Shown: positions 3-14,399, numbered from the stretch's first letter. The stretch is DNA of 64,000 nt from an uncultured Rhodanobacteraceae bacterium (GCA_964566965.1 CAZMKO010000003.1:5624-69623); one strand, 5' to 3'. Made by a program: numbers and translations. Notes: generated by a model not told the origin, from the letters alone.

Positions 3-413
3 ATGCAGTTCGTCAATTTGTCGAACTACAGTTCCAGCCAGGCGATGCAGGGCGCCGGCGGCACCGCCGCCAGCGCCACGGCGCACGCTTCGGACGTGTC
101 CAGCTTCCGGCAGACGTTTGCCGACGCCAAACCGGTCGAGGAGGCCAGCCAGACGGTGACGACGCCGCAGGTGGAAGGCACCTCGCCCGGTATCAAGTCC
201 ATTCTCGGCCAGTTCGATTCGCTCAACGGCAACGCGTCCAAGCTGACCCAGCTTGCCGACGAGGTCCGGGCCAGCGGTGACGACCTCAAGCCCAGTCAGA
301 TCATCGACATGACGCTGCAGGCGCACGAGCTGGTGTTCCAGGCCGAGTTGACCTCCAACGTGGCCAACCGCAGCTCCGAGGGTGTACAGCAATTGTTCCG
401 CCAGCAATCCTGA
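3..413 (+). CDS. sctI: T3SS inner rod protein (SctI/HrpB2-like)
   Basis: Ser/Ala/Thr-rich N-terminus; helical C-terminus ending VANRSSEGVQQLFRQQS as in inner-rod proteins; directly upstream of sctJ. Confidence 0.7.
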   Translation: MQFVNLSNYSSSQAMQGAGGTAASATAHASDVSSFRQTFADAKPVEEASQTVTTPQVEGTSPGIKSILGQFDSLNGNASKLTQLADEVRASGDDLKPSQIIDMTLQAHELVFQAELTSNVANRSSEGVQQLFRQQS

Positions 414-421
414 GGACGGAT

Positions 422-1213
422 GTGATCAACATTGCCACCCGTTCGACGGGCCTGCCGCGCCTGCTGGTGCTGCTTCTGGCCGTAACCCTGCTGGCCGGTT
501 GCGGCCGCAGCGTGCTGTACTCGCAGCTTGACGAGACCCAGGCCAACGAGGTGCTTGCCGCGTTGATCGACCACAACGTCGATGCCCGCAAGGAGGCGGA
601 CAAGCGCGGCGAAGGCTGGCAGGTCCTGGTTGATCGTGGCGACATGCCGGCGGCCATGGCGGTGTTGCACAACGCCGGTCTGCCGCACAGCAGCACCGAC
701 ATCGGCGCGATGTTCGAGAAGCAGGGCTTCGTGTCGTCGCCGCTGGAGGACAAGCAGCGTTATATCTACGCGCGCCAGCAGCAGTTGAACCAGACCCTGC
801 GCCAGTTGGACGGCGTGGTGGACGCCTACGTGTACTTGTCGGTGCCCGACAAGAACCCGCTCAGCGAGAGCCCGGTGGTCGGCTCGGCGTCGGTGATCCT
901 GATCGTGGCGCCAAATGCCGACATCAAGTCGCAGACCACCGAGATCAAGGCTGCGGTGATGAACGGCACCGAGAGCCTCACCGACCCTACGCGGGTCAGT
1001 GTGACCACGTTCCGGCGCAATCCGACGCCGGTCAATGTGTCCGACGCGCAGGCGGCCGCGTTTGGCGCCGACCTCGGCCCGGTGCTGTTGATCGGCCTGG
1101 CCGGCCTGGCGGTGCTGCTGGCCGTGTTGCTGCTGTGGCGCAACCGCAAGTCGCTGGTGGGTGCGCGTGGGGCGCGGGGCATCAGTCGTGGCGGGCGTGA
1201 GCGTGAACGCTGA
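422..1213 (+). CDS. sctJ: T3SS inner membrane ring lipoprotein SctJ (YscJ/HrcJ)
   Basis: Lipobox LLAGC; LYSQLDETQANEVLAAL; LNQTLRQLDGVVDAYV; SASVIL; C-terminal TM helix; GTG start after GAGGA. Confidence 0.93.
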   Translation: MINIATRSTGLPRLLVLLLAVTLLAGCGRSVLYSQLDETQANEVLAALIDHNVDARKEADKRGEGWQVLVDRGDMPAAMAVLHNAGLPHSSTDIGAMFEKQGFVSSPLEDKQRYIYARQQQLNQTLRQLDGVVDAYVYLSVPDKNPLSESPVVGSASVILIVAPNADIKSQTTEIKAAVMNGTESLTDPTRVSVTTFRRNPTPVNVSDAQAAAFGADLGPVLLIGLAGLAVLLAVLLLWRNRKSLVGARGARGISRGGRERER

Positions 1214-1886
1214 CGGTGCCACCGCTGCCGCTCCGGCATTGCGCCCCCTGGACGTGGTGCATCCGGCGCATTTTGCCGGCATGCCGCATGCCCTGGTGCA
1301 GCGTGGCCTGCAGTCGCGTCACGGCCGACGCCTGCTGTATCGCCGGGCGTGCCGACTGGATCCCGACGTGTTCCAGCCCCGCTCCGGCGGTTGGGACGAC
1401 TGGGTACCCGCCGCGCCGTGGCTGGCCTGGCCGCGCGGGCGGCTGGAGCGTTTCGCGCGTCTGCTGGGCGTGACGGCCGTCGGTCCGGCTTTGCGGATCA
1501 TCCTGCAACGCGACAAGGTGTTGTTCCTGCGCCGCGTCGCCGGCGAGGAGGCTTGGCGCCTCATGCAGGCGCACGACCCCTGGGACGGTCCGGCGCCCGA
1601 CACCGTGCGCCATCTTGGCAGCGCGCTGCTGCGCCGCGCGGGAACGGACGCGGCCGCCCTTGCCGATGCCTTCGTGCGTCGCGGCACCATTGAATTCATC
1701 GGTCACGCCGACCGCACCGCGCCGTTGCTGGCGCGACGCCTGCGTCTGGCGTTTGCCGGCGACGTGGACGCGTCATGCGCTCGTGAATGCTGGCTGCCGG
1801 CGCCCGCCGTGGACCGGCTCGTCGCCGAGTGCCACGAACGCTGGCAAGCCGAAGAGGCGCCCCGGCCGCAGGAGGACGCGTCGTGA
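1197..1886 (+). CDS. Putative T3SS sorting-platform protein (SctK/HrpB4 positional equivalent)
   Basis: Lies between sctJ and sctL and overlaps both; Trp/Arg/Leu-rich like SctK proteins; start uncertain (GTG 1197 or 1203). Confidence 0.55.
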   Translation: MSVNADGATAAAPALRPLDVVHPAHFAGMPHALVQRGLQSRHGRRLLYRRACRLDPDVFQPRSGGWDDWVPAAPWLAWPRGRLERFARLLGVTAVGPALRIILQRDKVLFLRRVAGEEAWRLMQAHDPWDGPAPDTVRHLGSALLRRAGTDAAALADAFVRRGTIEFIGHADRTAPLLARRLRLAFAGDVDASCARECWLPAPAVDRLVAECHERWQAEEAPRPQEDAS

Positions 1887-2521
1887 ACGCCCTGGTCAGC
1901 AACGACGATCAATTCCGCATGTACGTGGAGTCGGGCCGTATTCCGGCCGATGCCTGGATTCCGCTGAACGAGGCGCATCGCATCGTCGAGCGGGCCAATG
2001 AGCTGCTGCGCGAGGCCGAGGCCCGCGTCGAGGAAATCAAGGCCAATGCGCGCTTCGAGGGCCTCATCGAGGGTCGTGAACGCGGACTGCGCGACTGCGC
2101 CCGTGCCATGCAGGCACTGATCCAGGCGCGGGCTGTGGCCACCGACGAGTTGCGCCGTCGCGCCGGCGAGGTGGCCATCGGCGTGGTCAAGCACATCGCG
2201 CCGTCGATCGGTGCCGAGCGCCTGGTCGCCTCGCTGGTGGCGGAGGCGATGCAGCGCATGGTGTTCGAACCGCATTTGCTGGTGCGCATCCATCCGGACG
2301 TGGTCGAGCCGGCCCGCCGGGAGATTCGCGCCCTCGGCGCCGCCGTGCCGCCGGATATCGAGATCATCGGCGACCCGGACCTGGGACGGCTCGACTGCAT
2401 CATCGAGTCGGAAGGCGGCGTGGTGCGCGCGGGGTTCAACGAACAGCTGGAGCAGACACGGCGTATCCTGGCCGCCGCCGAGCGCAGCAACGGAGCACGC
2501 GATGAGCGATCCGGAGACTGA
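1883..2521 (+). CDS. sctL: T3SS stator SctL (FliH/YscL family)
   Basis: Coiled coil followed by EGLIEGRERGL (GxxxG); LLVRIHP; IIGDPDLGRLDCIIESEGGVV; GTGA overlap with upstream gene. Confidence 0.88.
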   Translation: MNALVSNDDQFRMYVESGRIPADAWIPLNEAHRIVERANELLREAEARVEEIKANARFEGLIEGRERGLRDCARAMQALIQARAVATDELRRRAGEVAIGVVKHIAPSIGAERLVASLVAEAMQRMVFEPHLLVRIHPDVVEPARREIRALGAAVPPDIEIIGDPDLGRLDCIIESEGGVVRAGFNEQLEQTRRILAAAERSNGARDERSGD

Positions 2522-3848
2522 GCACACGCCCCCCGTGGCCGATGCCGGCAACGATCCCCTGCTGCGCGTGCTGCGCCGCAGTGACACCCTGCAACACGTG
2601 GGGCGGGTGGCCGAGGCATTCGGCACGCTGATCCGCGCCACCGGCGTGCGCGCGGCCATCGGTGAGCTGTGCATGCTCGAGCAGAGCGACACCGGATTCA
2701 GTCTGCCCGCCGAGGTGGTGGGTGTCTCGCGCCAACAGACCTTGCTGACACCGCTCGGTCCGCTGGAGGGCCTGTCGGCGGCCGCGACGGTCGTTGCGAC
2801 CGGCCAGAAAGCGACAGCCCCGGCCGGCATGGGGTTGCTCGGTCGCGTGCTGGACAGCCATGGCGAGCCGATGGACGGGAAGGGCCCAGTGCCCGACGTG
2901 GTCCGTGTGCCCATTTACGCCGAGTCGCCCAACCCCATGCAGCGACCGGTCATCAACGATCCCATGGCCACCGGCGTGCGCTGCATCGATGCCACGCTGA
3001 CCATCGGCCGCGGCCAGCGCACCGGCATTTTTGCCGTCGCCGGCGGCGGCAAGAGCACCTTGCTCGGCATGCTTGCGCGCAACGCGCAGGCCGATGTCAA
3101 CGTCATCGTGCTGGTCGGCGAGCGTGGCCGCGAGGTGGGCGAATTTCTCGAGGACAGTTTGGGCGAGGAGGGTCTGGCGCGCAGCGTGGTCATCGTGGCC
3201 ACCTCCGACCGGCCGGCGCTGGAACGCAGCCGCGTCGCCTGGCTGGGTACCGCCATCGCCGAATATTTCCGCGACCGCGGCATGCACGTGATGCTGATGA
3301 TGGACTCGGTCACCCGTTTCGCGCGCGCATTGCGCGACGTCGGCCTGGCCATGGGCGAGCCCCCGGCGCGCCGGGGGTTCACGCCGTCGGTGTTTTCGGC
3401 CCTGCCGCGCCTGTTCGAGCGCGCCGGCACCAATCCGCACGGCACCATCACGGCGTTCTATACCGTGCTGATGGAGGACGAGCAGGGCAACGACCCGATC
3501 GCCGAGGAAGTGCGTTCCATCCTCGACGGACACATCTACCTGTCGCGACGCCTGGCACAGGCCAACCATTACCCGGCCATCGACGTGCTCGACAGCGCCA
3601 GCCGCGTGATGCCGCGTGTCACCAGCGCGTCGCATCGTCAGGCGGCCGGCACCTTGCGCAAGCATATGGCCAAGTACCGCGAGATCGAGATGCTGCTGCA
3701 GCTGGGCGAGTACAAGGCCGGCAACGACGCCGATGCCGACGCCGCCATTGCCCGGCATGATGCGATCCAGCAGCTTTTGCGGCAGGATACGCAGGAGAAG
3801 GCCTCTTTCGAGGAGACGGTCAGCCGTCTGGAGGGGATTGACCGATGA
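2502..3848 (+). CDS. sctN: T3SS ATPase SctN (FliI/YscN family)
   Basis: Walker A AVAGGGKST; LVGERGREV; MMDSVTRFARA; ILDGHIYLSR; HYPAIDVLDSASRVM. Confidence 0.96.
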   Translation: MSDPETEHTPPVADAGNDPLLRVLRRSDTLQHVGRVAEAFGTLIRATGVRAAIGELCMLEQSDTGFSLPAEVVGVSRQQTLLTPLGPLEGLSAAATVVATGQKATAPAGMGLLGRVLDSHGEPMDGKGPVPDVVRVPIYAESPNPMQRPVINDPMATGVRCIDATLTIGRGQRTGIFAVAGGGKSTLLGMLARNAQADVNVIVLVGERGREVGEFLEDSLGEEGLARSVVIVATSDRPALERSRVAWLGTAIAEYFRDRGMHVMLMMDSVTRFARALRDVGLAMGEPPARRGFTPSVFSALPRLFERAGTNPHGTITAFYTVLMEDEQGNDPIAEEVRSILDGHIYLSRRLAQANHYPAIDVLDSASRVMPRVTSASHRQAAGTLRKHMAKYREIEMLLQLGEYKAGNDADADAAIARHDAIQQLLRQDTQEKASFEETVSRLEGIDR

Positions 3849-4339
3849 GTACCGCACCAAGCCGGTTTCCGCTGGATCCGTTGCTGAGCGTTCGCCAGAT
3901 GCGCGTGCGCACGCTGGAAAGCGAGCTGCAGCGGTGTCGGGCCGAACAGGCGCGCGCCGAGACGCGGCGCGACCAGGCACGCGGCGACTGGCAGCGTGCC
4001 GGCACCGAGCGCGAAACCTATCGTATCGACACCTGGCGCAAATTGTTCGAGGGAGGCACGCCGGATGCACTGGCGACGTCGCGCTACAAGCGGCATCTGG
4101 CCTTGCTGAAGCAGCGCATCGAGCAGCTGCATGCCGTGCTGGAGGAACGCGAAAAGGCATTGCGCGAGGCTGCCGAGGCAGTCGAAGTGGCGGCCGTGGC
4201 CTGGCGCAAGGCTTGGCGCAAGCTGGATGCCGTCGAGCAAATGAAGCAAGGATGGCAACGGGATGAAAACGAGCGTGCCGAGCAGCGCGAGGAACTGGCC
4301 ATGGAAGAGTTGCTGGTCCACCGCGCACCGGCCATTTGA
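3845..4339 (+). CDS. sctO: T3SS stalk protein SctO (YscO/FliJ-like coiled coil)
   Basis: All-helical charged coiled coil after sctN with ATGA overlap; PLDPLLSVRQMR start and EELAMEE end. Confidence 0.75.
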   Translation: MSTAPSRFPLDPLLSVRQMRVRTLESELQRCRAEQARAETRRDQARGDWQRAGTERETYRIDTWRKLFEGGTPDALATSRYKRHLALLKQRIEQLHAVLEEREKALREAAEAVEVAAVAWRKAWRKLDAVEQMKQGWQRDENERAEQREELAMEELLVHRAPAI

Positions 4340-4350
4340 GGAGAGGGAAC

Positions 4351-5010
4351 ATGCACAGTGATTCCGTACAAGCACCAGCCCCGCCGCCGGCGCCGCGCCC
4401 GTCCGAGCGCCGCCAGCGCGATGACGATCCGGTGCGGCGCAGCGAAGATTCCAGGCGTTTCCGCAAGACCCTGAAGGAAGGGCGCGACAAGGGCGCGGCG
4501 GAAAAGGGCAAGGGCAAGGCGAGCCTGCAGCAGGCGGGCGAGGCGCAGGGCGCGCGCGTGGCTGCCGTGCAGGAGCGCGGCCAGCAGCACAAGCATGGCG
4601 GCGGCCTCGGCCATGACCGCCAGGATGGCAGCCTGACGGCGGGCATGTTCGCCATGCAGCAGGCCCAGGTGGTCATGCACCAGACCGCCGCGCAGCCGAC
4701 CGCCCCGGCGACGGCCAGCATGGCACCGGCACTGGCCGATCTCATCGCCAAGCACGTCAAGCAGTTGCTGGTCCCCGTGAAAGGGGCGACCGGCGCCGAG
4801 TCGCGCGAGGTGATGCTGACCCTCAGCAACGACATCCTGCCGGCCACCGACCTGTGGCTCAGCCGCACCGAGCAGGGTTGGAAGCTGCGTGCCGGGACGC
4901 GCTCGCCGGAGGCCTACCGGTTCCTGGTGGAACAGACGCCGAACCTGGTCAAGCGCTTCGCCGACAGCCAGCTGGGCGAGTTGGAGATCGATCCCACGCT
5001 GGAAGCGTGA
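4351..5010 (+). CDS. Putative T3SS needle-length/substrate-switch protein (SctP/HpaP-like)
   Basis: Disordered N-terminal half; C-terminal T3S4-like domain (LTLSNDILPATDLWLSRTEQGWKLRA); follows sctO; RBS GAGGAG/AGGGA. Confidence 0.65.
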   Translation: MHSDSVQAPAPPPAPRPSERRQRDDDPVRRSEDSRRFRKTLKEGRDKGAAEKGKGKASLQQAGEAQGARVAAVQERGQQHKHGGGLGHDRQDGSLTAGMFAMQQAQVVMHQTAAQPTAPATASMAPALADLIAKHVKQLLVPVKGATGAESREVMLTLSNDILPATDLWLSRTEQGWKLRAGTRSPEAYRFLVEQTPNLVKRFADSQLGELEIDPTLEA

Positions 5011-5013
5011 ACG

Positions 5014-5772
5014 TCAGTGGCCGTCGCCAAGGATGGCAATGCCATGGTCGCGCAACCACGCACGCACCTTTTCGCGCTGCGTTCGTGCCGTGTCGCTGAT
5101 GCCGTTGTCGGATACCTGACTGACGTAGGTCTGGAAGGTCTCGCCGCGCTGGTTGCGGCGCTCGGGATCGGCACCGGCTTTGAGCAGTGCCAGCACGCAG
5201 TCGTTTTTGTGCACCTGCGCGGCGACATGCAGTGGCGTGTCACCCAGGCGGTCGGTCAGGTTCGGGTTCGCGCCGTGCTCAAGCAGCAGCCGGAACGCGT
5301 CGTCGTCGGGATTGAGCAGTGCGGCAGACAGCGCCGGCTCACCCGTCACCGTATGCACCGTGTCCGGGCTGGCACCGTGCGCGAGCAGCCGCGTCAGCCA
5401 GGAAATGTCGTTGCTTTTGGCGGCCATGTGCATGACCGTGTCACCGCCGATGCCGGCCGCAGCCGGATCGGCGCCGGCATCCAGCAGGGCATCCATGCCC
5501 TCGGGACTGTGGTTGAGCAGCGCCCATTCCAGCAGGTTCACGCCCTTGTCGCCGCGCGCGTCGGGGCTGACGCCGTCGGCCACCAGCTTGTCGATGCGTG
5601 CTCGTTCGCCGTCGGCGACGGCCGTGGCCAGTGCCGCCACCCGGGGATCGCTGAACACCTGCTCGGCGTTGGGTTGGTTCATGTCTGCATGCGCCACGAG
5701 AATACCTGCCATCAGAATGACGGTCACGACGATCCAAGGCAAGCCGTAACGGCGCGGGCGTGGCGATGACAT
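5014..5772 (-). CDS. Exported ankyrin-repeat protein (immunity-like)
   Basis: N-terminal hydrophobic signal ending AHA; repeats LLDAGADP, GDTVMHMAA, LLEHGANPNLTDRLGDTPLHVAA, LLKAGADP. Confidence 0.85.
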   Translation of the reverse strand: MSSPRPRRYGLPWIVVTVILMAGILVAHADMNQPNAEQVFSDPRVAALATAVADGERARIDKLVADGVSPDARGDKGVNLLEWALLNHSPEGMDALLDAGADPAAAGIGGDTVMHMAAKSNDISWLTRLLAHGASPDTVHTVTGEPALSAALLNPDDDAFRLLLEHGANPNLTDRLGDTPLHVAAQVHKNDCVLALLKAGADPERRNQRGETFQTYVSQVSDNGISDTARTQREKVRAWLRDHGIAILGDGH

Positions 5773-5949
5773 GACGGCTCCAGTGGCGATGGACAGGACG
5801 CGCGGCGAGGTTCCATCGTGCCATATTGCGCGCAGCGCATGCATGCGCAGTGAACGGCGGTGCACCGCGTCGGTGGACTTGCACACGACGCTTGCGCACA
5901 CTGGGTTCGGGTGTCGTCATGCCCGTCGTCAATCGGAGGGTTCCGCATC

Positions 5950-6312
5950 ATGCTGCCGATGAAGTCGCTGTGCACCGTCGTGTTGTTGTCCATCCTGCCC
6001 GCCGTGGTGCCGATCCGTGCCGGCGAAACGGTTACCGAAACGGTGCAATGCAGTTTCGGTGATGCACCGGCGGTGACATGCACCTTGCACGATCGCGTCG
6101 ACCGTGACGGCATGCATCACATGCAGTTTGTCGCCGGCGACCACGCCACCACGTTCACCGGGCGGATGCAGTCGGGATGGTGGTCGGGCTGGCTGAACGG
6201 CAAGAAGGCCATGGGCTACGAGCTCAATCGTGGCCATGTGGTTTACAGCACCGCCGCCATGGATGCGCGCTTCGAATGGTGGTCGAAAGGCAAACAGCAC
6301 GGTACATACTGA
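5950..6312 (+). CDS. Small exported hypothetical protein
   Basis: Signal-like N-terminus MLPMKSLCTVVLLSILPAVVPIRA; paired Cys; beta-rich; GGAGGG upstream. Confidence 0.65.
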   Translation: MLPMKSLCTVVLLSILPAVVPIRAGETVTETVQCSFGDAPAVTCTLHDRVDRDGMHHMQFVAGDHATTFTGRMQSGWWSGWLNGKKAMGYELNRGHVVYSTAAMDARFEWWSKGKQHGTY

Positions 6313-6386
6313 GAGGTTTGTGAAAAACCGCCCGGCGGCACGCCCGCTGCGGCGGTCGGATTTTCACGAGCTCCGAGACGCGGCCC

Positions 6387-6402
6387 CTGGGGAAAACCCT
6401 AG
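6387..6402. promoter_or_regulatory. Palindromic motif CTGGGGAAAACCCTAG, candidate regulator site
   Basis: Related copies at 8292-8306, 9789-9802 and 14383-14399, all intergenic and upstream of starts. Confidence 0.45.
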
Positions 6403-6510
6403 GCTAGGGATCGCCCGGATGGTGATCGGCCGGCACAGGTGGGATGGTGTACCCGACCCCATCGCGGCGTCGCGCGTTGTCGCGACCAGCCCACCATCGA
6501 GGAGACGATC

Positions 6511-7701
6511 ATGACAGTCGGTGCCGTCGGAGCGCATTCCAACGCGGCGTGGCAGAACGCCGGAAACCAACCCCGCAATGAACGTATCGATGTCGCCGTG
6601 CGGTACTTCGTCAGCCAGGGCTGGACGCATGCGCAGGCCGCGGGCATCGTCGCCAACCTCATGGCCGAGAGCGGCGTCGATCCGCATCGTGCCCAGATGG
6701 GCGGTGGACCGGGGTACGGTATCGGTCAGTGGGAAGGGCCGCGTCAGGCGGAGTTCGCGCAATGGGCCGGCCACGATATCCACGGGTCTTCGCTGCAGGA
6801 ACAGCTGGGCTTCGTGCAGTACGAGTTGACCCACGGCGAGTCGGCAGCCGGATCGCGACTGCGCGGCGCGACCAGTGCCGGTGACGCGGCCGCCATCGTG
6901 TGCCAGTACTATGAACGGCCTGCCGACACGGCCGGCCAGTCGCGCTACCGTGCCGGCTTGGCCAACGATATCTTTTCCGGTTCCTCGCCCGGAACCTCCG
7001 GCACGCCGGCCTCGACAGGCGGCACCACGGCTGGCGCCAATCCCGCCGCCATGCAGGGTGGCGACCACCTTATCCAGCGTGGTGACACCCTTTGGGGGAT
7101 CGCCATGCGTGCCGGCATCTCGCTGGCTTCGATGATCCGCGCCAATCCGCAGTTCGGCAACCCGAATCTCATCTTCCCGGGCCAGCAGGCCAATGTGCCC
7201 GGCAGCGCCATGGGTGACGGCACCATGGCGACCGGCGGTATCACCGCGGCCAACGACATCGACGGTGACGTCAATGGCACCGACGCTGCCGCCATCGCGC
7301 GTCATTACATGGGGCGCTTCGAATCGGACCTGCAGCGCGCCGGTATCACGCTGGATTGTCCGACCAGTCTCAGCTGCGCCAATTTCGTCACGTCCATGCT
7401 GGTCAAGTCGGGCCAGTTCGATGCCGGATCGATGTCGCGCGCACAGCGCGTCAGCGTCAGTGCCATGGCGCAGTTCCTGAAAAGCCAGGGCTGGCGGGTG
7501 GTGCCGGCATCGCAGGCCAAGCCTGGCGACGTGTGGGTGAGTGCCGGGCATTCGCACACCGAGCTGGTCAACAACAACGACGGGGGCAAGGTCACGCTGA
7601 TCGGTTCCAACAATCACCCGAATCCGGGCGACCAGCAGATCAATCTCGATGGTTCTTCGGCCAGCAACGCCGGCAGTTACATCCTGGCGCCGCCGGCTTG
7701 A
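6511..7701 (+). CDS. Multi-domain peptidoglycan hydrolase: phage-tail lysozyme + LysM + NlpC/P60/CHAP-like domain
   Basis: AQAAGIVANLMAESGVDP...GYGIGQW...QLGFVQYEL (phage lysozyme 2); HLIQRGDTLWGIA...ANPQFGNPNLIFPGQ (LysM); SCANFVTSML...PGDVWVSAGHSHTELV (Cys/His); RBS GAGGAG; no Sec signal. Confidence 0.85.
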   Translation: MTVGAVGAHSNAAWQNAGNQPRNERIDVAVRYFVSQGWTHAQAAGIVANLMAESGVDPHRAQMGGGPGYGIGQWEGPRQAEFAQWAGHDIHGSSLQEQLGFVQYELTHGESAAGSRLRGATSAGDAAAIVCQYYERPADTAGQSRYRAGLANDIFSGSSPGTSGTPASTGGTTAGANPAAMQGGDHLIQRGDTLWGIAMRAGISLASMIRANPQFGNPNLIFPGQQANVPGSAMGDGTMATGGITAANDIDGDVNGTDAAAIARHYMGRFESDLQRAGITLDCPTSLSCANFVTSMLVKSGQFDAGSMSRAQRVSVSAMAQFLKSQGWRVVPASQAKPGDVWVSAGHSHTELVNNNDGGKVTLIGSNNHPNPGDQQINLDGSSASNAGSYILAPPA

Positions 7702-7820
7702 CACGGATGACATGACCGCCGCGTCGCAGGACGTGGCCGGATCGTGAAACGGGCGTCATGTCATATGGCGCCCGTTTTTCGGACGCGTGGCAGAGGGGTT
7801 TTCGTTGAATCCCAGGGTGG

Positions 7821-8207
7821 TTACAGGGCCGGAAACAGGGCGTCGGGGACATCGTACTGGTCCTGCCATGTGGCCCAGGCGAGGTCGGTCGGACCGATTT
7901 GCGAGACCATCGGCACCCATTCGTCGCGTTCGCGGCGCAGCAACGCCATGCAGATGTCCGAACGATGGCCCTGCGCGGCGTCGTCGGCCAGCGGCGTGTC
8001 GGCGTAGTCCAGTGACCGGCCGTCCAGTTCGCGCATGGTTGCCTGCATGAAGGCATGCTGGCCCAGCACGCGCAGCGTGTCGGCATCCAGCGTGACGGGC
8101 TTGTGCAGCACGTCCCGCACCGTGGCGCGCACGGCGGCCAGGATGGCGGCGTGGTCCGCGTCGCCGGGCGCGGGGGTCCGTGGCGTGGTGTTGTCGATGG
8201 TTGGCAT
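7821..8207 (-). CDS. Hypothetical protein (candidate immunity), convergent with the hydrolase
   Basis: Protein-like segment AILAAVRA...ALLRRERDEW...IGPTDLAWATWQDQYDVPDALF; start at ATG 8207 downstream of gshA stop. Confidence 0.6.
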   Translation of the reverse strand: MPTIDNTTPRTPAPGDADHAAILAAVRATVRDVLHKPVTLDADTLRVLGQHAFMQATMRELDGRSLDYADTPLADDAAQGHRSDICMALLRRERDEWVPMVSQIGPTDLAWATWQDQYDVPDALFPAL

Positions 8208-8310
8208 GGTACGGCCCCGTGATGGTGGAAATGCGCCCGGCATGCGCCGGGGTGTGATCCAGTATAGGCAGCGCGTGTGGCTGCCGACACCCGGGTGATT
8301 CCCCAGGTTT

Positions 8311-9678
8311 CTAGTAGGCGAACTCGCGGAACACCGGATCCACGCTTTCGTGCCATGCGCCGTGGTACAGCTCGAGCTTGCGCTCGGCCGGCGTCTGGTT
8401 GGCTTCCACGAATTCCAGCAACGGCTCCAGGAAGATGGTTTCATCGGCGCCGTGGTCGTTGGTGCGCGCGCGCCGCTTCAGGCCGTGTCCGGCGATTCGA
8501 AGCACCTCGGTCGCCAGCTCGCGCACCGTGGCGTCGCGAAATGGCAGCTTCAGGCCCTGTAGGGGGACGCCGTCGCGCAGGGCGTGGCGCTCTTCGGTGG
8601 TGAAGTCCGCGATCAGTCGCGATGCGGCGTCCAGCGCTTCGTCGTCGTAAAGCAGGCCGACCCACAGCGCCGGCAGGGCGCACAGGCGGTTCCAGGGGCC
8701 GCCGTCGGCGCCGCGCATCTCCAGGAACTGTTTCAGGCGCACCTCGGGGAAGGTCGTGGTCATGTGATCGGACCAGTCGCGCAGCGTGGGCCGCACACCG
8801 GGCAGCTGAGGCAGCTTTCCGGCCAGGAAATCGCGGAAGCTTTCGCCCGCGCAATCGATGTAGCGACCCTCGTGGTAGGTGAAATACATCGGTACATCCA
8901 GCAGGTACTGGACCCAGCGCTCATAGCCGAAATCGTCCTCGAACACGAAGTCCAGCATGCCGGTGCGGTCCGGGTCGGTGTCGGTCCACACGTGTGAGCG
9001 CCACGACAGGTAGCCGTTGGGCCTGCCGTCGGTGAACGGCGAGTCGGCGAACAGCGCCGTGGCCACCGGTTGCAGGGCAAGGCCGACGCGGAATTTGCGG
9101 ATCATGTCCGCTTCGCTGGCGAAATCCAGGTTCACCTGCACCGTACAGGTGCGCGTCATCATGTCCAGGCCGAGGTCGCCCCGGGTGGGCATGTAACGGC
9201 GCATGGTGGCGTAGCGCTCCTTGGGCATCCAGGGCATGTCGGCGCGCCGCCACTTGGGCTGGAAGCCCATGCCGAGAAAACCCATGCCCATGCGCTCGGC
9301 GACCGAGCGCACTTCTTCCAGATGGCAGGTGACTTCGCGGCAGGTCTCGTGAATGGTCGAGACCGGGGCGCCGGAAAGCTCCAGCTGGCCGGCCGGCTCC
9401 AGGGTGATCGAGGCGCCATCGCGCGACAACGCCACCGGCAAATCGCCCTGGCGCACGATATCCCAGCCGTGCGTGGCGGCGATGCCTTCCAGCAACGCCC
9501 GGATGCCGCGTGGCCCGTCGTAGGGCGGGGGCGTCAGGTCGTCCCAGTAGAAGCCGAATTTCTCGTGTTCGGTACCGATGCGCCATTGTTCGCGTGGTTT
9601 CTCGCCCACCGCGAGGCTGGCGACGAGATCGTCGGTACCGGTGATGGGTGTGGCCTTGGCGTGACTGGGGATGGACAC
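8311..9678 (-). CDS. gshA: Glutamate-cysteine ligase (GCS2, plant/alphaproteobacterial type)
   Basis: [10 protein letters not shown]; [13 protein letters not shown]; [14 protein letters not shown]; [18 protein letters not shown]; GTG start after AGGA. Confidence 0.95.
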
Positions 9679-9813
9679 CGTGGCGTTCCTTTTGCGGGTA
9701 ATCGTTTCACTGTGGGGGCTGCCGACACAAATTGGAAGGGCCCGTGGACACGCGCCGGGTGTCGCGTTGCCGCAGCCTGGTGGTAGGTTGGGGCTTTCCC
9801 CACGGAGTGCGCC

Positions 9814-10851
9814 ATGGCCGACCGCAGGCAATTCATCAAGGCATCATTGTTGGGCGCCTCGGCGCTCGCCGTCGGCGATGTCGCGGCCGGCCCCGGTCCG
9901 GCGCGGGGCGGGACCGGCCATGCCGCCGCGCACCGCGGCGCCCGCGTGGTCTCCACCTGGGACTTCGGCGTGGCCGCCAACCACGCCGCCTGGACGCAGT
10001 TGGGCAAGGGGAAGTCGGCATTGGACGCCGTGGAGGCCGGGGCGCGGGTACCCGAGGCCGACCTGCGCAACCATAGCGTCGGCAAGGGCGGCTATCCGGA
10101 TCGCGACGGCAAGGTTACGCTGGACAGCAGCATCATGGACGCCGATGGCCGTTGCGGCGCCGTGGCGGCGTTGGAGCACGTGACCCATGCCGTGTCGGTC
10201 GCGCGGCGGGTGATGGAGCGCACCCCGCACGTCCTGCTGGCCGGCGACGGCGCGCTGCAGTTCGCGCTCGAGCAGGGGTTCGAGAAGGAAAACCTGCTCA
10301 CGCCACCGGCCGAGAAGGCTTGGCACGATTGGCTCCGGCAGGCCGACTACCAGCCGCGCATCAACAGCGAGGTGCGTGACTACGGCGCCGGTATGCCGGG
10401 TGGTGCCGACAACCACGACACCATCGGTATCCTGGCCCTGGATGAACACGGCCACCTGGCCGGTGCCTGCACCACCAGCGGCATGGCCTGGAAGCTGCAC
10501 GGCCGGGTCGGCGACAGCCCCATCATCGGCGCCGGCCTGTACGTGGACGGCGAGGTCGGTGGTGCCACCTCCACCGGCGTCGGCGAGGAGGTGATCCGCA
10601 ACGCCGGCAGTTTCCTCGTGGTGGAACTGATGCGTCAGGGCCGCTCGCCGGGCGAGGCGTGCCGCGAGGCGGTGATGCGTATCGTCAAGAAACGGCCGCG
10701 CAAGGCGAAAGACCTGCAGGTGGCGTTCCTGGCCATGAACCGGGATGGCGAGGTCGGCGCGTTCGCGATCCAGCACGGGTTTTCCTATGCCGTATGCGAT
10801 GCACGCGACCAGAGCGCGCTGGTCGCGGCCAAGAGCGTGTACGGCACATGA
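9814..10851 (+). CDS. N(4)-(beta-N-acetylglucosaminyl)-L-asparaginase (glycosylasparaginase), Tat-exported
   Basis: Tat motif DRRQFIK; autoproteolysis site NHDTIG; [12 protein letters not shown]. Confidence 0.93.
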
Positions 10852-11594
10852 GCATGCCGATCCTGGAGGTGGCAGCCAACTCGGTCGCGTCGGCCTGTGC
10901 CGCGCAGGCCGGCGGCGCGGAGCGGGTGGAACTGTGCGTGGCCCTGGAACTGGGCGGCCTCACGCCGTCCCATGGCACGATCGCCCTGGTTCGCGAGCGG
11001 CTGGATATCGCCGTCTACGTGCTGATTCGTCCGCGTGGTGGCGATTTCGTCTATCACGACGCGGAAATCGACACCATGTGCCGCGACATCAAAGCCTGCG
11101 CCGCCCTGGGGTGCGACGGCGTGGTGATCGGTGCGCTGGACCGGCACGCTGCCGTGGACCTGGCCGCGTGTCGTGCCTTGGTCGACGCCGCCGGTGCCAT
11201 GGGAGTGACCTTTCACCGCGCTTTCGATCTGACGGTGGACCCGGCCGCCGCCTTGGAGGCCGTGGTGGCGTTGGGGTGCGAGCGCATCCTCAGCTCGGGC
11301 GGGCAGCCCGATGCCATGCAGGGCGCCGAGCAGCTGCGTCGCCTCGTGATCCAGGCTGGCTCGCGCCTGGCCGTGATGCCCGGCGCCGGCGTTCGCGCCG
11401 GGAACATCGCTGCTCTGGCGCGCCGTACCGGTGCCCGCGAGTTTCATGCCTCGGCCAAACGCACGCACCCCACCCGATCGACGGTGTCGACGACGTTTGC
11501 CGACATGGCCGCCGGCGAAACCCGCACCGATCGCGAGGAGGTGCATGCCATGGTCGAGGCATTGCGCGGGACGGAGGGCAACCCGGGCAAGTAG
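10848..11594 (+). CDS. cutC: CutC family protein
   Basis: LEVAANS; ERVELC..LELGGLTPS; LIRPRGGDF; TFHRAFD; ATGA overlap. Confidence 0.93.
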   Translation: MSMPILEVAANSVASACAAQAGGAERVELCVALELGGLTPSHGTIALVRERLDIAVYVLIRPRGGDFVYHDAEIDTMCRDIKACAALGCDGVVIGALDRHAAVDLAACRALVDAAGAMGVTFHRAFDLTVDPAAALEAVVALGCERILSSGGQPDAMQGAEQLRRLVIQAGSRLAVMPGAGVRAGNIAALARRTGAREFHASAKRTHPTRSTVSTTFADMAAGETRTDREEVHAMVEALRGTEGNPGK

Positions 11595-11619
11595 TGGCGG
11601 ATAGCGCTCCGCATCCTGC

Positions 11620-11873
11620 CATCGCCGCCATGGGGCGCTTCCACGGGGGGCATGGATGTCATGAAACCCTTGTGGGGAACCTCGAAAAACCGGACTTTTT
11701 TTACGGGAGCAGCTTCAGCCGCAATGGCAAGATACCCGCAAGCATTGATCGCGGCTGAAGCCGCTCCCACAGGTTGATGTCCCGTATCCGGTTTTTCGAA
11801 GTGCCCTACAGTGGCCTTGATGAAAATGCAGGTTCATCGAGGTGCCTTGTGGGAGCGGCCCCCGGCCGCGATG
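11620..11873. repeat. REP doublet (family 2, degenerate) interrupted by a MITE
   Basis: CATCGCCGCCATGGGGCGCTTCCACG (11620-11645) inverted to TGTGGGAGCGGCCCCCGGCCGCGATG (11848-11873). Confidence 0.75.
11675..11847. mobile_element. MITE-like element with GGGAACCTCGAAAAACC termini carrying a REP doublet (family 1)
   Basis: TIR at 11675, inverted copies ending 11806 and 11847; internal GGGAGC(A/G)GCTTCAGCCGC pair; TGTG on both flanks; homologous copy at 35795-35966. Confidence 0.7.
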
Positions 11874-11877
11874 CTTT

Positions 11878-11908
11878 CCCGAGTCCCGAGTCCCGAGTCC
11901 CGAATCCC
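11878..11908. repeat. Heptamer tandem repeat (CCCGAGT)n
   Basis: CCCGAGTCCCGAGTCCCGAGTCCCGAATCCC; shorter copy at 47583-47599. Confidence 0.8.
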
Positions 11909-11910
11909 AC

Positions 11911-12492
11911 CTACTCCCGCACCACCGCGAACTCCCGCGCATCCTCGCTCCACACCGGGGCGTCCACAATCGCCGGCAGCACATCGTCCGGTGTGGCGAC
12001 CCGTTGCCACATGGCGGCATGTTCCGGGTTCATGAAATGCTCGGCGATGACCTGCTGCATGAAGGCATCCAGCGGTTCGTAGAAGTGCCGGGTATCCAGC
12101 AGGACGATGGGATTGAGGTACAGGCCCAGGCGTTTCAGCGTGATGGCCTCGAACAGCTCCTCCAGCGTGCCGCAGCCGCCGGGCAGGGCGATGACGGCAT
12201 CCGATCCGGTCAGAAGCTTGTGCTTGCGCTCGCGCATGTCGCCGACCAGCTCCAGCTGGGTCAGGCCGGGATGGCCCCATTCCAGGTCGGCCATGAAGCG
12301 CGGCAGGATGCCGATGACTTCGCCGCCTTTGGACAAGGCGCCGTCGGCCACCGCGCCCATGGATCCGGCCGAGCCGCCGCCGTAGACCAGGGTATGGCCG
12401 CCGTCGGCAAGCAGCTCGCCTACACGGTACGCCGCCTCGCGGTAGACAGGATCGGACTGGTTGCTGGAGGCGCAGTAGACACAGATGCGCAT
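11911..12492 (-). CDS. LOG family nucleotide phosphoribohydrolase (TIGR00730)
   Basis: ICVYCASS; LVYGGG..GSMGAVA; MRERK; ALPGGCGTLEEL. Confidence 0.93.
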   Translation of the reverse strand: MRICVYCASSNQSDPVYREAAYRVGELLADGGHTLVYGGGSAGSMGAVADGALSKGGEVIGILPRFMADLEWGHPGLTQLELVGDMRERKHKLLTGSDAVIALPGGCGTLEELFEAITLKRLGLYLNPIVLLDTRHFYEPLDAFMQQVIAEHFMNPEHAAMWQRVATPDDVLPAIVDAPVWSEDAREFAVVRE

Positions 12493-12600
12493 GAGGTGCT
12501 CCCTCAGACTGATGGGTGATCGTGAATCCGCCCATTATCGCGCAGCGCCGCGCGATCGGCACCCCGGTGCCGATCGTCGCCATGGTTCGAAAGAGGTCGC

Positions 12601-12646
12601 AAAAAAAGACATGCCCCGGCCGCGACCGCTGCGACAGCGGCCGGGG
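12601..12646 (-). terminator. Intrinsic terminator of the LysM gene
   Basis: Stem CCCCGGCCGC...GCGGCCGGGG followed on the minus strand by a T7 run (A-tract 12601-12607). Confidence 0.6.
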
Positions 12647-12659
12647 ATGCCTGGAGAAA

Positions 12660-14321
12660 TCAGCCGGTCACGCTGACCTTGCCCGGCAGGGCCACCATGT
12701 TGCGATCCCCGATGTTGCCGTCGCCGGCCTGGGAAATGTGGAACAGACGCTCGGCGGTGCCGTAGTCGTTGCCGCCAAGATTGCGCGCCAAGGCCACGGC
12801 AAAGTCCTGGGTGCTGATCGGCTTGCCGTCGTAGTCCTGGGCCAGGGCCTTGAGCTTGAAATCGGTGCCCTGGGAAGCGTCGATGGCCTTTTGCACATAC
12901 GATTCCAGCTGCCCCATCTCCTCCTGGGTGTAGGTGATGGTCACCGTCTGCCCCGGCTTCACCGGTCCGTCCTTGGCGTTCTCGACGCTGCCGGTCTGGG
13001 CGGCGTTGATGAGTTGCGAGGTGTTGTCGTCGGCCTTGATGGTGTAGCTGTAGGTACGCGCATCGGCAATCTCGTTGCCGTCGGCGTCGAACTTCTGGCT
13101 CATCGTCATCGGCACGTTGTCGCCGTATTGCAAGTCGACGGTGCGCGTCATGCTGCCATCCGGCTCGGTGACCACCACCGAGCTGCCGGTGTTCTTGGCG
13201 CCGTTGACACCGATGCTGACCGGGCCGAGCTTGGCGTCGAACTTGGTCTGTGAGGAGTAGTCCAGTTTCTCGATGGTCTTGACGTTGGCGATGCCGTCGC
13301 CGTTGTCCTCGGGCAGGTTGCCGCCGGCCAGGAAATCGTTGTACGCGGCGCGGCCGGCTTCGGTGGACAGGTCGAATTCGGCCGATTGCAAGGTGGCGTT
13401 GCCGAGGTGGTCGGCACGGCCGAGCATGGCACTGGCCACGCCGAAGTCCACGCCGACGCCGTTGTAGGCATCGATGGCCTCGGTGGGGCCGGCGGTGACG
13501 CGGACCGTGTGGTCATCGGTCTTTTCCACGGCCACGCTGGTGCCGGAGGCCTCGGTGTGGGTGTATTTGTTGGCCAGGTTCTTGAAGGTGGCCTGGAATT
13601 CATTGGTGCTGTAGTGCGACCCGTCGATCTTCACGCTGGTGCCGGTGGGCATCGAATCGGGATCGAACGGATTGACGGAGGCAAGGTCGGTACCGTTGGC
13701 GGTCGCCTCCGGCATGGCCACTTCCCAGGACGACTTGATGCCTTCGGTATGGCCGACTTCGAGGCCGGCCTGCTTGCTGTGCACGCCGGCCTTCAGCGAT
13801 ACCGACACGTCACCGGATACGGTATAGGTGGTGGTGCCATTCTCGGTTTTCTTGCCGGCCGTGGTGCTGGCGTTGGCATCGACGCCGAAGCTGACGCCGC
13901 GGCCCTTGGCGTTGGTCACGTCCTTGCTGAAGCCGGTGCCGGTGGACAGCGATACCGTGCCTGCGTCCGGGTCTACGCCGACCTTGGTCGACTGGTGCGT
14001 TTCGGAGGTGGTCTTGGTGCCGTTGGTGTCGGTTTGGCTGGTTTCGTTCTTTTCCGTTGCCGTGGCGCCGGCATTGACCGGCGTGGCGTTGTTGCCACCG
14101 CCACCGTTGCCGGCCTCGGGGATGGCCAGCCGCATGCCCGCCTGCAGCAACACCGGTGGATGGATCTGCGGGTTGGCGTCGTACAACGCCTGGGCGGAGA
14201 CGCCGTAATCCTTGGCCACGCTTTGCAGCGTTTCGCCGGGAGCCATGACGTGTTCGTTGGCCGCCGGCGGCGACTGCCACTGCTGAAACGGGTTGCCGGA
14301 TGAAATGCCGGGAATGCTCAT
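12660..14321 (-). CDS. LysM-domain protein with large Thr/Gly-rich uncharacterised C-terminal region (candidate effector)
   Basis: HVMAPGETLQSVAKDYGVSAQALYDANPQI...LQAGMRLAIP (LysM); no Sec signal; start MSIPGISSG. Confidence 0.85.
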   Translation of the reverse strand: MSIPGISSGNPFQQWQSPPAANEHVMAPGETLQSVAKDYGVSAQALYDANPQIHPPVLLQAGMRLAIPEAGNGGGGNNATPVNAGATATEKNETSQTDTNGTKTTSETHQSTKVGVDPDAGTVSLSTGTGFSKDVTNAKGRGVSFGVDANASTTAGKKTENGTTTYTVSGDVSVSLKAGVHSKQAGLEVGHTEGIKSSWEVAMPEATANGTDLASVNPFDPDSMPTGTSVKIDGSHYSTNEFQATFKNLANKYTHTEASGTSVAVEKTDDHTVRVTAGPTEAIDAYNGVGVDFGVASAMLGRADHLGNATLQSAEFDLSTEAGRAAYNDFLAGGNLPEDNGDGIANVKTIEKLDYSSQTKFDAKLGPVSIGVNGAKNTGSSVVVTEPDGSMTRTVDLQYGDNVPMTMSQKFDADGNEIADARTYSYTIKADDNTSQLINAAQTGSVENAKDGPVKPGQTVTITYTQEEMGQLESYVQKAIDASQGTDFKLKALAQDYDGKPISTQDFAVALARNLGGNDYGTAERLFHISQAGDGNIGDRNMVALPGKVSVTG

Positions 14322-14382: not shown

Positions 14383-14399
14383 CTGGGGAAAACCCGTAG
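14383..14399. promoter_or_regulatory. Palindromic motif CTGGGGAAAACCCGTAG upstream of the LysM gene
   Basis: First 13 nt identical to the motif at 6387. Confidence 0.45.

What the first reader, a model, noticed from the sequence alone, without database searches (positions are those of the whole stretch)
3..14321. Candidate antibacterial T3SS: injectisome genes next to LysM-tagged cell-wall effectors and immunity-like genes
Seen: the sctIJKLNOP operon is followed by an exported ankyrin protein, a small exported protein, a signal-peptide-less lysozyme-LysM-amidase and a small convergent protein. A second signal-less LysM protein lies 5 kb on. The two LysM genes share an upstream palindrome and a similar N-terminus. 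No recognisable eukaryote-targeting effector is present. Known: characterised injectisomes mainly target eukaryotic cells, while peptidoglycan hydrolase plus periplasmic immunity is the signature of T6SS and X-T4SS interbacterial weapons. Inference: this T3SS may export peptidoglycan-binding toxins against bacteria (competition or predation). Neither LysM protein has an obvious XVIPCD, PAAR or VgrG tag for another route.
Basis: partly seen in the sequence, partly recalled or inferred. Interest (0 to 1): 0.82.

Follow-up and report, generated by a model that had tools for sequence, protein, structure and literature searches.

The report
Bacteria-killing type III secretion system
This bacterium carries a type III injection machine whose genes share a DNA motif and a genome distribution with cell-wall- and membrane-cutting enzymes paired with predicted antidote proteins, so it likely attacks neighbouring bacteria rather than plant or animal cells, which would be a new job for this kind of machine.

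Summary
The window holds sctI-P of an injectisome; sctQRSTUV, sctC, sctD and needle-like genes lie on overlapping contigs. Its SctN groups apart from the sampled Hrp2, Ysc, Rhizo and Desulfo systems.

The lysozyme-LysM-CHAP family (6511-7701) was found in 11 of 401 order genomes, all among the 16 with this T3SS type. Three near-complete carriers lack T6SS and X-T4SS markers. The small convergent gene has a cystatin-like fold and is predicted to plug the CHAP active site (score 0.82; best control 0.00).

A palindrome learned from relatives marks T3SS genes and further pairs in this genome: lipase+ankyrin, M91 protease+exported partner, RNase A-like toxin+CdiI. The second LysM protein's payload is fused to XVIPCD in other genomes; the CHAP payload is fused to WXG100.

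Against: no secretion or killing data; this genome has a T6SS; its inhibitor copy lacks a signal peptide; the second LysM gene has no immunity neighbour; M91 weakly resembles XopG/HopH; the 'similar N-terminus' is chance. Verdict: likely antibacterial injectisome, about 0.62.

The parts
3..413 (+). sctI, inner rod
   Evidence: PF17001 E 0.004, below cut-off; same position in all 22 related loci
422..1213 (+). sctJ, inner-membrane ring lipoprotein
   Evidence: TIGR02544 166 bits, cut-off 162
1161..1886 (+). sctK-like gene (start uncertain)
   Evidence: position between sctJ and sctL, conserved cluster; no family hit
1883..2521 (+). sctL, stator
   Evidence: FliH / T3SS_SCTL / TIGR02499
2502..3848 (+). 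sctN, ATPase
   Evidence: TIGR02546 599.7 bits, cut-off 604.75; T3SS_ATPase_C; tree
3845..4339 (+). sctO, stalk
   Evidence: YscO-like E 2.5e-8
4351..5010 (+). sctP / HpaP-like ruler
   Evidence: PF09483 E 8e-8
5014..5772 (-). Exported ankyrin protein; likely immunity to a lipase whose gene lies on contig C6 in this genome
   Evidence: Ank repeats; follows or adjoins a lipase gene in 8 related loci; the C6 lipase is 50-52% identical to that lipase
5950..6312 (+). Small exported protein; weak candidate inhibitor of the tail-lysozyme domain
   Evidence: Next to the hydrolase only where the muramidase is tail-lysozyme type: 3 genomes and 3 metagenome loci, though only 3 of 10 such metagenome loci have it; orphan homologues in G030 and G087
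6387..6402 (.). Palindromic box, CTAGGG-N4-CCCTAG type; likely operator of the cluster's LuxR-type response regulator (inferred)
   Evidence: 22.6 bits with a matrix trained on relatives only
6511..7701 (+). Leaderless lysozyme-LysM-CHAP peptidoglycan hydrolase, candidate T3SS effector; Cys289, His349 and Glu351 invariant
7821..8207 (-). Cystatin-like predicted inhibitor (immunity) of the CHAP domain; this copy lacks the signal peptide seen in most relatives
   Evidence: fold pLDDT 89.7; top structural rows cystatins, Z up to 7.8; complex 0.82 versus best control 0.00; leaders
8291..8306 (.). Degenerate box upstream of the inhibitor gene
   Evidence: 6.1 bits; stronger copies upstream of several orthologues
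12660..14321 (-). Leaderless LysM + beta-rich payload of unknown activity, candidate substrate; the same payload carries XVIPCD in other genomes; no immunity neighbour
14383..14398 (.). Degenerate box upstream of the second LysM gene
   Evidence: 7.0 bits; two similar sites before the G171 orthologue

Best explanation
[quoted passage not shown] Shown here: the machine genes, the enzyme domains, the toxin-partner pairing, the shared upstream box and the co-occurrence. Predicted: the cystatin-like partner plugs the CHAP catalytic Cys/His with its near-invariant GPTD loop. Inferred mechanism: (1) the cluster's histidine kinase and LuxR-type regulator bind the palindrome and switch on the machine and scattered effector genes together; (2) leaderless effectors with polar, charge-poor N-termini like those of SctI and the needle-like protein are exported through the T3SS; (3) LysM domains dock the hydrolase on prey peptidoglycan, where the muramidase cuts glycan and the CHAP domain cuts peptide; lipases attack membranes, the M91 protease an envelope target and the RNase A-like toxin the cytoplasm; (4) exported immunity proteins guard the producer's periplasm against leakage and sister-cell attack. 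How effectors cross the prey outer membrane is open. A glycine-zipper, needle-like paralogue is my guess for the tip.
For: CHAP profile found in 11 of 401 order genomes, all among the 16 with sctJ E<1e-40. It was found in 0 of the 12 with weaker sctJ hits and 0 of 373 without. 8 of the 11 helped build the profile; G010, G030 and G354 were new. G048 (1 contig, 100%), G084 (99%) and G054 (100%) carry T3SS, effector and inhibitor but no TssC or XVIPCD; 2 of the 5 genomes tested had both. The muramidase domain is swapped among GH24, tail-lysozyme, SLT-like and GH19 types while CHAP and the partner stay. The partner adjoins all 14 T3SS-linked CHAP copies, 2 of 3 further genome copies and 52 of 66 metagenome loci with enough downstream DNA. 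The one M23-type copy has a different, lipoprotein-like neighbour. Complex score 0.82, best of 3 controls 0.00; runs agree in at least 97% of contacts; partner pLDDT at least 89. That mark was reached by 116 of 157 solved and 2 of 215 mismatched pairs, roughly applicable because my own alignments were used. Box: 8 of 10 top sites in G000 precede T3SS genes or candidate substrates; 74 exact sites in 16 T3SS+ genomes versus 13 in 20 T3SS- genomes, reversed controls 5 and 9. Box-marked pairs: lipase+ankyrin, M91+exported partner, RNAse_A_bac (E 2.5e-31)+CdiI_2 (E 1e-19). The M91 gene is in 8 of 301 family genomes, all T3SS+, each with box and exported partner. Payloads are shared with other bacterial export routes: XVIPCD fusions and WXG100/EspC fusions. 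5 of 7 candidate substrates have N-termini at the 99th percentile or above for S/T/P/N/Q/G among 2011 proteins.
Against: No secretion, expression or killing data. G000 has a T6SS with its own effector-like gene, so another route exists here. The window's and G171's inhibitor copies lack a signal peptide (2 of 16). The second LysM gene has no immunity neighbour in any of the 18 loci seen. 5 of 16 clade genomes lack the CHAP family, and only 11 of 19 long metagenome loci show T3SS genes within 10 kb. The box total in G000 (10) is below shuffles (15-18); it also precedes rpoN and, in G048, a flagellin-like gene. The pattern was derived from T3SS loci, so some sites count by construction. M91 resembles XopG/HopH weakly (42.8 bits, cut-off 150). 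The RNase toxin was not found in 5 relatives, with a silent control. The 6511 N-terminus is only at the 83rd percentile. Genomes are related, so counts are not independent.
Confidence: 0.62

Rival explanations
1. The injectisome targets eukaryotes (fungi, amoebae, algae, plants), and the hydrolases are side cargo, for example clearing peptidoglycan or endosymbionts; lipases, M91 and RNase act in eukaryotic cells.
For: Characterised injectisomes act on eukaryotes (established knowledge). M91 is the Pfam 'Effector protein' family and hits XopG/HopH weakly. Lipases and RNases can harm any cell. A plant-targeted T3SS effector with an antitoxin, AvrRxo1, appears in a search listing (PMC4938570).
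Against: Peptidoglycan is a bacterial target. M91 has an exported partner in 8 of 8 loci, which a toxin acting only in eukaryote cytoplasm would hardly need. A Dyella japonica MF79 T3SS mutant keeps wild-type plant immunomodulation (PMC11928319 passage; that this T3SS belongs to the clade is my inference).
Confidence: 0.14
2. The hydrolase opens the producer's own wall for injectisome assembly, like EtgA or HrpH, and the cystatin-like protein only limits it.
For: The gene lies beside the T3SS in 14 of 22 related loci and shares its box. T3SS-dedicated lytic enzymes are known (recalled). An inhibitor fits regulation as well as immunity.
Against: No Sec leader. Two catalytic domains, a swappable muramidase and up to about 6 LysMs suggest an external target. 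The family is absent from 5 of 16 clade genomes, including single-contig G064. It moves away from the locus with its partner. The same CHAP rides on WXG100. This rival does not explain the lipase, M91 or RNase pairs under the same box.
Confidence: 0.1
3. The toxins are antibacterial and co-regulated with the T3SS but leave by another route (T6SS, T1SS, vesicles, lysis); the T3SS serves attachment or something else.
For: G000 has a T6SS. The M91 protein has RTX repeats typical of T1SS cargo. G053 and G122 have T6SS and X-T4SS markers. In Myxococcus the T3SS* cooperates with a Tad machine (PMC10433427 passages).
Against: G048, G084 and G054 lack TssC and XVIPCD. G000 has no VirB4 or XVIPCD hit, but it is 87% complete. 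No 14-bit box lies on the T6SS contigs. The N-terminally tagged form of the second payload was seen only in T3SS+ genomes (5 of 5).
Confidence: 0.14

Closest known systems
Myxococcus xanthus needle-less T3SS* with the Kil/Tad machine (PMC10433427, passages)
   Same: A type III system linked to bacterial prey; needed for prey lysis. Relatives of both window payloads occur in proteins named from Myxococcaceae/Archangium.
   Different: T3SS* lacks secretin, needle and translocon, and its effectors are unknown. This system has SctC, needle-like genes and identifiable toxin-immunity pairs.
Xanthomonadales bactericidal X-T4SS with X-Tfe/X-Tfi pairs (PMC6536674, PMC10933484, passages)
   Same: Cocktail of peptidoglycan hydrolases (GH19, SLT, M23) and lipases (Lipase_3, DUF2974) with exported immunity; one payload is shared with XVIPCD proteins.
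   Different: No XVIPCD on these proteins and no VirB4 found in G000. The presumed tag is N-terminal, and the machine is a T3SS.
T6SS effector-immunity pairs, e.g. Enterobacter cloacae Tle lipase with ankyrin-repeat Tli (10.1101/2023.03.28.534661, passages); CdiA-CT RNase A-like toxin with CdiI
   Same: Lipase + exported ankyrin and RNAse_A_bac + CdiI_2 pairs.
   Different: No VgrG/PAAR/Rhs/CdiA carrier on these proteins; the family persists in genomes without TssC.
Annotated but functionally unassigned T3SS of Lysobacter capsici CK09 (PMC10384520, passages) and Dyella japonica MF79 (via PMC11928319)
   Same: CK09 has the same gene order (U,T,S,R,Q, RR, HK, V, D, I-P, SctF) as clade member G607; very likely the same clade (inferred from order, not aligned).
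   Different: In the passages read, no effectors, operator or target are assigned, and the two-component system is stated to be of unknown function.
T3SS-dedicated lytic transglycosylases EtgA, IagB, HrpH, Hpa2 (recalled)
   Same: Peptidoglycan-cutting gene beside and co-regulated with a T3SS.
   Different: Here a leaderless two-enzyme protein with LysMs and a dedicated inhibitor, missing from a third of the clade.

Membership tests
Non-flagellar T3SS (injectisome) | Export apparatus SctRSTUV | tested here: met
   sctR; sctS/sctT ORFs by sequence and position; sctU TIGR01404 394 > 358; sctV partial TIGR01399; sctV spans the overlapping contigs C93 and C3
Non-flagellar T3SS (injectisome) | Secretin SctC and rings SctD/SctJ | tested here: met
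   TIGR02516 360 > 238; TIGR02544 166 > 162; SctD YscD domains, TIGR02500 74 < 86
Non-flagellar T3SS (injectisome) | SctN/L/O/Q cytoplasmic complex, not flagellar | tested here: met
   only one FliP-family gene in the 87% complete genome; SctN groups with T3SS ATPases
Non-flagellar T3SS (injectisome) | Needle subunit SctF | tested here: inconclusive
   C44 gene PF09392 E 7e-6, 26.6 bits < 29.4; the gene before sctI is its paralogue, 26%
Non-flagellar T3SS (injectisome) | Hydrophobic translocon (SctE/SctB type) | tested here: inconclusive
   PF04888 in 0 of 5 genomes, but the control was silent; other translocon families not searched
Hrp2, Ysc, Rhizo or Desulfo T3SS families | SctN nests with family references | tested here: not met
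   38-sequence tree: clade support 85-86, apart from Hrp2 (100), Ysc+Desulfo (97) and Rhizo (100); thin sampling, no Myxo/Chlamy/SPI-2 references; SctV at most 37% identical to plasmid T3SSs
Myxococcus T3SS* | No secretin and no needle | tested here: not met
   SctC present; needle-like genes present
X-T4SS effector (X-Tfe) | C-terminal XVIPCD and a VirB/D4 system | tested here: not met
   No XVIPCD on the window proteins; none in G000, no VirB4 (87% complete; the XVIPCD search does ring in G053 and G122)
T6SS effector | VgrG/PAAR/Rhs fusion or linkage and dependence on a T6SS | tested here: inconclusive
   No such domain or neighbour; three carriers lack TssC; but G000 has a T6SS
Antibacterial effector-immunity pair | Adjacent cognate immunity gene that co-travels | tested here: met
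   16 of 17 genome copies; 52 of 66 metagenome loci
Antibacterial effector-immunity pair | Immunity exported to the periplasm | tested here: inconclusive
   Leader in 14 of 16 genome copies by inspection; hydrophobic stretch in 34 of 42 unique metagenome copies by a crude test; absent in the window's copy
Antibacterial effector-immunity pair | Immunity binds and blocks the toxin | tested here: inconclusive
   Predicted only: 0.82 versus 0.00, loop 105-109 on the catalytic Cys and His
Antibacterial effector-immunity pair | Delivery and killing depend on the machine | not testable with these tools
   Needs mutants and prey assays
CHAP/NlpC-type cysteine amidase | Catalytic Cys-His(-Glu) and family match | tested here: met
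   C, H and E invariant in 14 of 14; PF05257 E 0.0013 here, precomputed PF05257 on many homologues; activity untested
Cystatin superfamily | Helix over antiparallel sheet fold | tested here: inconclusive
   Top rows are cystatins, e.g. Z 7.8, rmsd 3.2, 83 aligned, but Z is under 8 and Foldseek gave no E<=1e-3; the QxVxG motif (recalled) is not in the consensus
EtgA/HrpH-type assembly enzyme | Single SLT domain needed for assembly in the producer's periplasm | tested here: not met
   Multi-domain, no leader, not found in 5 of 16 clade genomes; need for assembly untested

The most novel reading that the evidence does not exclude
A widespread environmental clade of needle-bearing injectisomes is a dedicated interbacterial weapon. 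It injects polymorphic toxin-immunity cargo, with payloads swapped among T3SS, X-T4SS (XVIPCD) and T7SS (WXG100) tags, through a translocon-free, glycine-zipper tip into prey periplasm and cytoplasm. The same payload families point to the missing effectors of the myxobacterial T3SS*.
Probability: 0.4. Interest if true: 0.95.

Novelty: new variant of a known kind. Interest (0 to 1): 0.86.

Why it matters
Injectisomes are regarded as anti-eukaryote devices. The only bacterial-prey case I found is the needle-less myxobacterial T3SS*, whose effectors are unknown. If correct, this adds the T3SS to the contact weapons bacteria use on each other. It would give a function to the unexplained T3SSs of Dyella, Lysobacter, Dokdonella and relatives, including biocontrol strains. 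It supplies named substrates, immunity genes, an operator motif and a new amidase-inhibitor family (1391 representatives). It is directly testable, since a Dyella japonica T3SS mutant is reported.

Tried and rejected
'Similar N-terminus' of the two LysM proteins: rejected.

Fold of the second LysM payload: pTM 0.73, beta-rich; no Foldseek match at E<=1e-3. The wide search gave only generic beta-sheet and porin rows (best Z 9.0 on a low-confidence segment), so a pore-forming role is unsupported. The Atlas on a homologue gave only leads under 0.9, including an XVIPCD cluster at 0.82.

The genome-contig scan with SctJ returned only 2 loci. The PDB sequence search with the CHAP profile gave no significant real match; LytN E 0.26. 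SseC and RNase family searches had silent controls. No RNA holder was listed.

Housekeeping genes 8311-12492 were rejected as parts. The weak box hit at the tssA start (3 mismatches) was not counted. Earlier scan findings: nothing relevant.

L032 was dropped from gene calling because the codon model failed but kept in the tree; G021 was left out of the tree. Of the 27 family genomes with sctJ hits, G152, G263, G066, G167 and G115 were not gene-called, and G021 only.


Full report
Setting. The window is G000:C3:5624-69623 of a 2.6 Mb, 87% complete genome. Homologue names (Dyella, Dokdonella, Rudaea, Luteimonas) point to the Xanthomonadales; that placement is inferred. Half or more of the words of 3-8300 are held by 11 of 20 listed runs from 3 studies, labelled soil, farm or unlabelled; one may be the source.

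The machine. sctI, J, L, N, O and P have family hits, and sctK is positional. Upstream on C3 lie sctV, sctC, sctD and a needle-like gene. Contig C93 overlaps C3 inside sctV. It carries sctU, T, S, R, Q, a LuxR-type response regulator, a histidine kinase and a FliO-like gene. A second needle-like gene on C44 hits PF09392 just under its cut-off and is a paralogue of the first. No SseC-type translocator was found in 5 genomes, but that search had a silent control. A 38-sequence SctN tree groups these systems (support 85-86) apart from Hrp2, Ysc/Desulfo, Rhizo and two probable Hrp1 sequences. Support is moderate and references are few. SctJ hits were found in 28 of 301 family genomes and 28 of 401 order genomes, 16 of them at E<1e-40. 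Three weaker hits that I inspected are other T3SS types, without the box.

The hydrolase and its partner. 6511-7701 is tail-lysozyme + LysM + CHAP-like with no leader. Its lysozyme aligns to phi29 morphogenesis protein 1 at E 0.0016, and the CHAP Cys, His and Glu are invariant. Of 22 related T3SS loci, 14 have a relative beside the cluster; two of the loci end right after sctP. The muramidase varies (GH24, tail lysozyme, SLT-like, GH19; types assigned from Pfam labels and by motif) while the CHAP domain stays. The CHAP profile hit 11 of 401 genomes, all within the 16 and none of the other 385. Eight of the 11 were in the profile. The convergent gene accompanies 16 of 17 genome copies, including two far from the T3SS, and 52 of 66 metagenome loci with at least 700 bases downstream, out of 80 kept. 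The one copy with an M23 domain instead has another, lipoprotein-like neighbour. The partner folds at pLDDT 89.7; its top structural rows are cystatins at Z up to 7.8, which is suggestive only. The complex model scored 0.82 against a best control of 0.00, with at least 97% agreement of contacts and partner pLDDT of at least 89. That mark was reached by 116 of 157 solved and 2 of 215 mismatched pairs, roughly applicable here. The partner's GPTD loop sits on the catalytic Cys289 and His349. This is a prediction of inhibition, not a measurement. Most copies have a signal-peptide-like leader (14 of 16 genomes; 34 of 42 unique metagenome copies by a crude test), but the window's and G171's do not. 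That is unexplained. The same CHAP domain is fused to WXG100/EspC in proteins named from mycobacteria, as polymorphic toxin payloads are.

The box and the regulon. A CTAGGG-N4-CCCTAG palindrome precedes effector-like and T3SS genes across relatives. A matrix from 58 sites in relatives (G000 and G171 excluded) gave 10 sites at 14 bits or more in G000, fewer than the 15-18 in shuffles. Nine are intergenic, and eight precede T3SS genes or candidate substrates; one precedes rpoN. An exact pattern gave 74 sites in 16 T3SS+ genomes and 13 in 20 T3SS- genomes (reversed controls 5 and 9); part of this is by construction. In G048 one of six sites precedes a flagellin-like gene and two precede unrelated genes. 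That the cluster's regulator binds the box is inferred. The marked genes in G000 are a lipase on C6, a lipase + exported ankyrin on C10, an RTX-M91 protease + exported partner on C44 and an RNase A-like toxin + CdiI on C64. At relaxed stringency the second LysM gene and a third LysM protein on C14 are also marked. The C6 lipase is 50-52% identical to the lipase that adjoins the ankyrin gene in relatives, which explains the window's orphan ankyrin. Ankyrin immunity to a T6SS lipase is published (10.1101/2023.03.28.534661, passages). The M91 gene occurs in 8 of 301 family genomes, all T3SS+ and away from the fetched cluster regions, each with box and exported partner. It is also the best hint of a eukaryotic target (XopG/HopH, 42.8 bits versus cut-off 150). 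The RNase family was not found in 5 relatives (silent control).

The second LysM protein. Its payload (residues 90-553) has 121 homologues; four carry XVIPCD and several are named from Myxococcaceae. In the order sample, 17 of 401 genomes have it. Twelve show an XVIPCD-like C-terminus by inspection, and five (one of them a weak hit) show an N-terminal extension instead; all five are among the 16. No form has an immunity neighbour. The model is beta-rich with no clear structural match. It looks like a secreted accessory or toxin of unknown activity, linked to the T3SS by a weak box and by co-occurrence only.

Route. G000 has a T6SS and no VirB4 or XVIPCD hit. G048, G084 and G054 (99-100% complete) have T3SS, hydrolase and inhibitor without TssC or XVIPCD; G053 and G122 have both. 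Five of seven candidate substrates have N-termini as polar as SctI's; the 6511 and RNase proteins are less extreme. Export by the T3SS is the simplest common route but is not shown.

Mechanism and odds. Most likely (0.62): the two-component system induces the machine and its cargo together; the cargo is exported through the T3SS onto or into adjacent bacteria; wall, membrane and cytoplasm are attacked; immunity proteins protect self. Rivals: eukaryotic target (0.14), another export route (0.14), own-wall remodelling (0.10).

Literature. Ten library searches showed no report of a needle-bearing antibacterial T3SS or of these effectors; the phrase 'antibacterial T3SS' was in 0 papers. The library lacks most subscription papers, and most results were seen as listings only. 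I read term passages of PMC10433427, PMC11928319, PMC6536674, PMC7777525, PMC10933484 (107, with abstract), 10.1101/2023.03.28.534661 (122) and PMC10384520. I read no supplements; CK09 Table S11 would bear on clade identity. PMC4938570 was seen as a listing only. EtgA/HrpH, the cystatin motif and the glycine-zipper role are recalled. The machine is a known kind and has been annotated in Lysobacter. The bacterial target, the regulon and the inhibitor family were not found in print.

Noticed in passing
G000:C64:4205-5435 (L106): RNase A-like CdiA-CT toxin with a short non-CdiA N-terminus, followed by CdiI_2 immunity, with two boxes upstream; implies delivery into a cytoplasm if it is a T3SS substrate.
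   Followed up: partly
G000:C44:16542-20048 (L105): Needle-like gene, a helical small gene, an RTX-M91 protease and an exported partner form a detached piece of the system; in G171 it adjoins the glycine-zipper gene.
   Followed up: yes
G000:C93:8242-8783 (L112) and related loci: Glycine-zipper gene; in relatives a glycine-rich N-terminus is joined to a needle-like C-terminus (about 213-260 aa). Candidate tip or translocator.
   Followed up: no
G000:C93:981-3199 (L112): FliO-like gene plus a FixL/FixJ-like two-component system inside an injectisome cluster, conserved across the clade.
   Followed up: partly
G000:C30:11708; G048:C1:1244231 (L114): The box also lies before rpoN in G000 and before a flagellin-like gene in G048, hinting at wider control.
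   Followed up: no
G000:C14:44483-45451 (L107); G000:C75:5970-8529: Third leaderless LysM protein (cut by the contig end, related to large proteins beside the T3SS of G064 and G161), and two unannotated divergent genes near a relaxed box.
   Followed up: no
G000:C88, C131, C142, C60: T6SS cluster with a small effector-like gene and neighbour after tssE, a PAAR-like gene and a VgrG-like gene (labels by inspection).
   Followed up: partly
related loci, clusters 27, 36, 20, 22, 17: Conserved unannotated genes at the T3SS of relatives, several with the box; candidates for further substrates or chaperones.
   Followed up: no
G607:C12 (L144), G603:C41 (L148): Clade members whose cluster lacks sctC between sctV and sctD, like the published Lysobacter capsici gene list.
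   Followed up: no
P0044, P0045, P0116, P0341: Myxococcaceae/Archangium proteins carry the same payloads; possible leads to T3SS* effectors.
   Followed up: no
window 14550-64000: The rest of the window looks like ordinary core genes (rho, trxA, rhlB, ftsEX, ung, rpoH, priA, glmS, parAB, a sugar-uptake cluster), by inspection.
   Followed up: no
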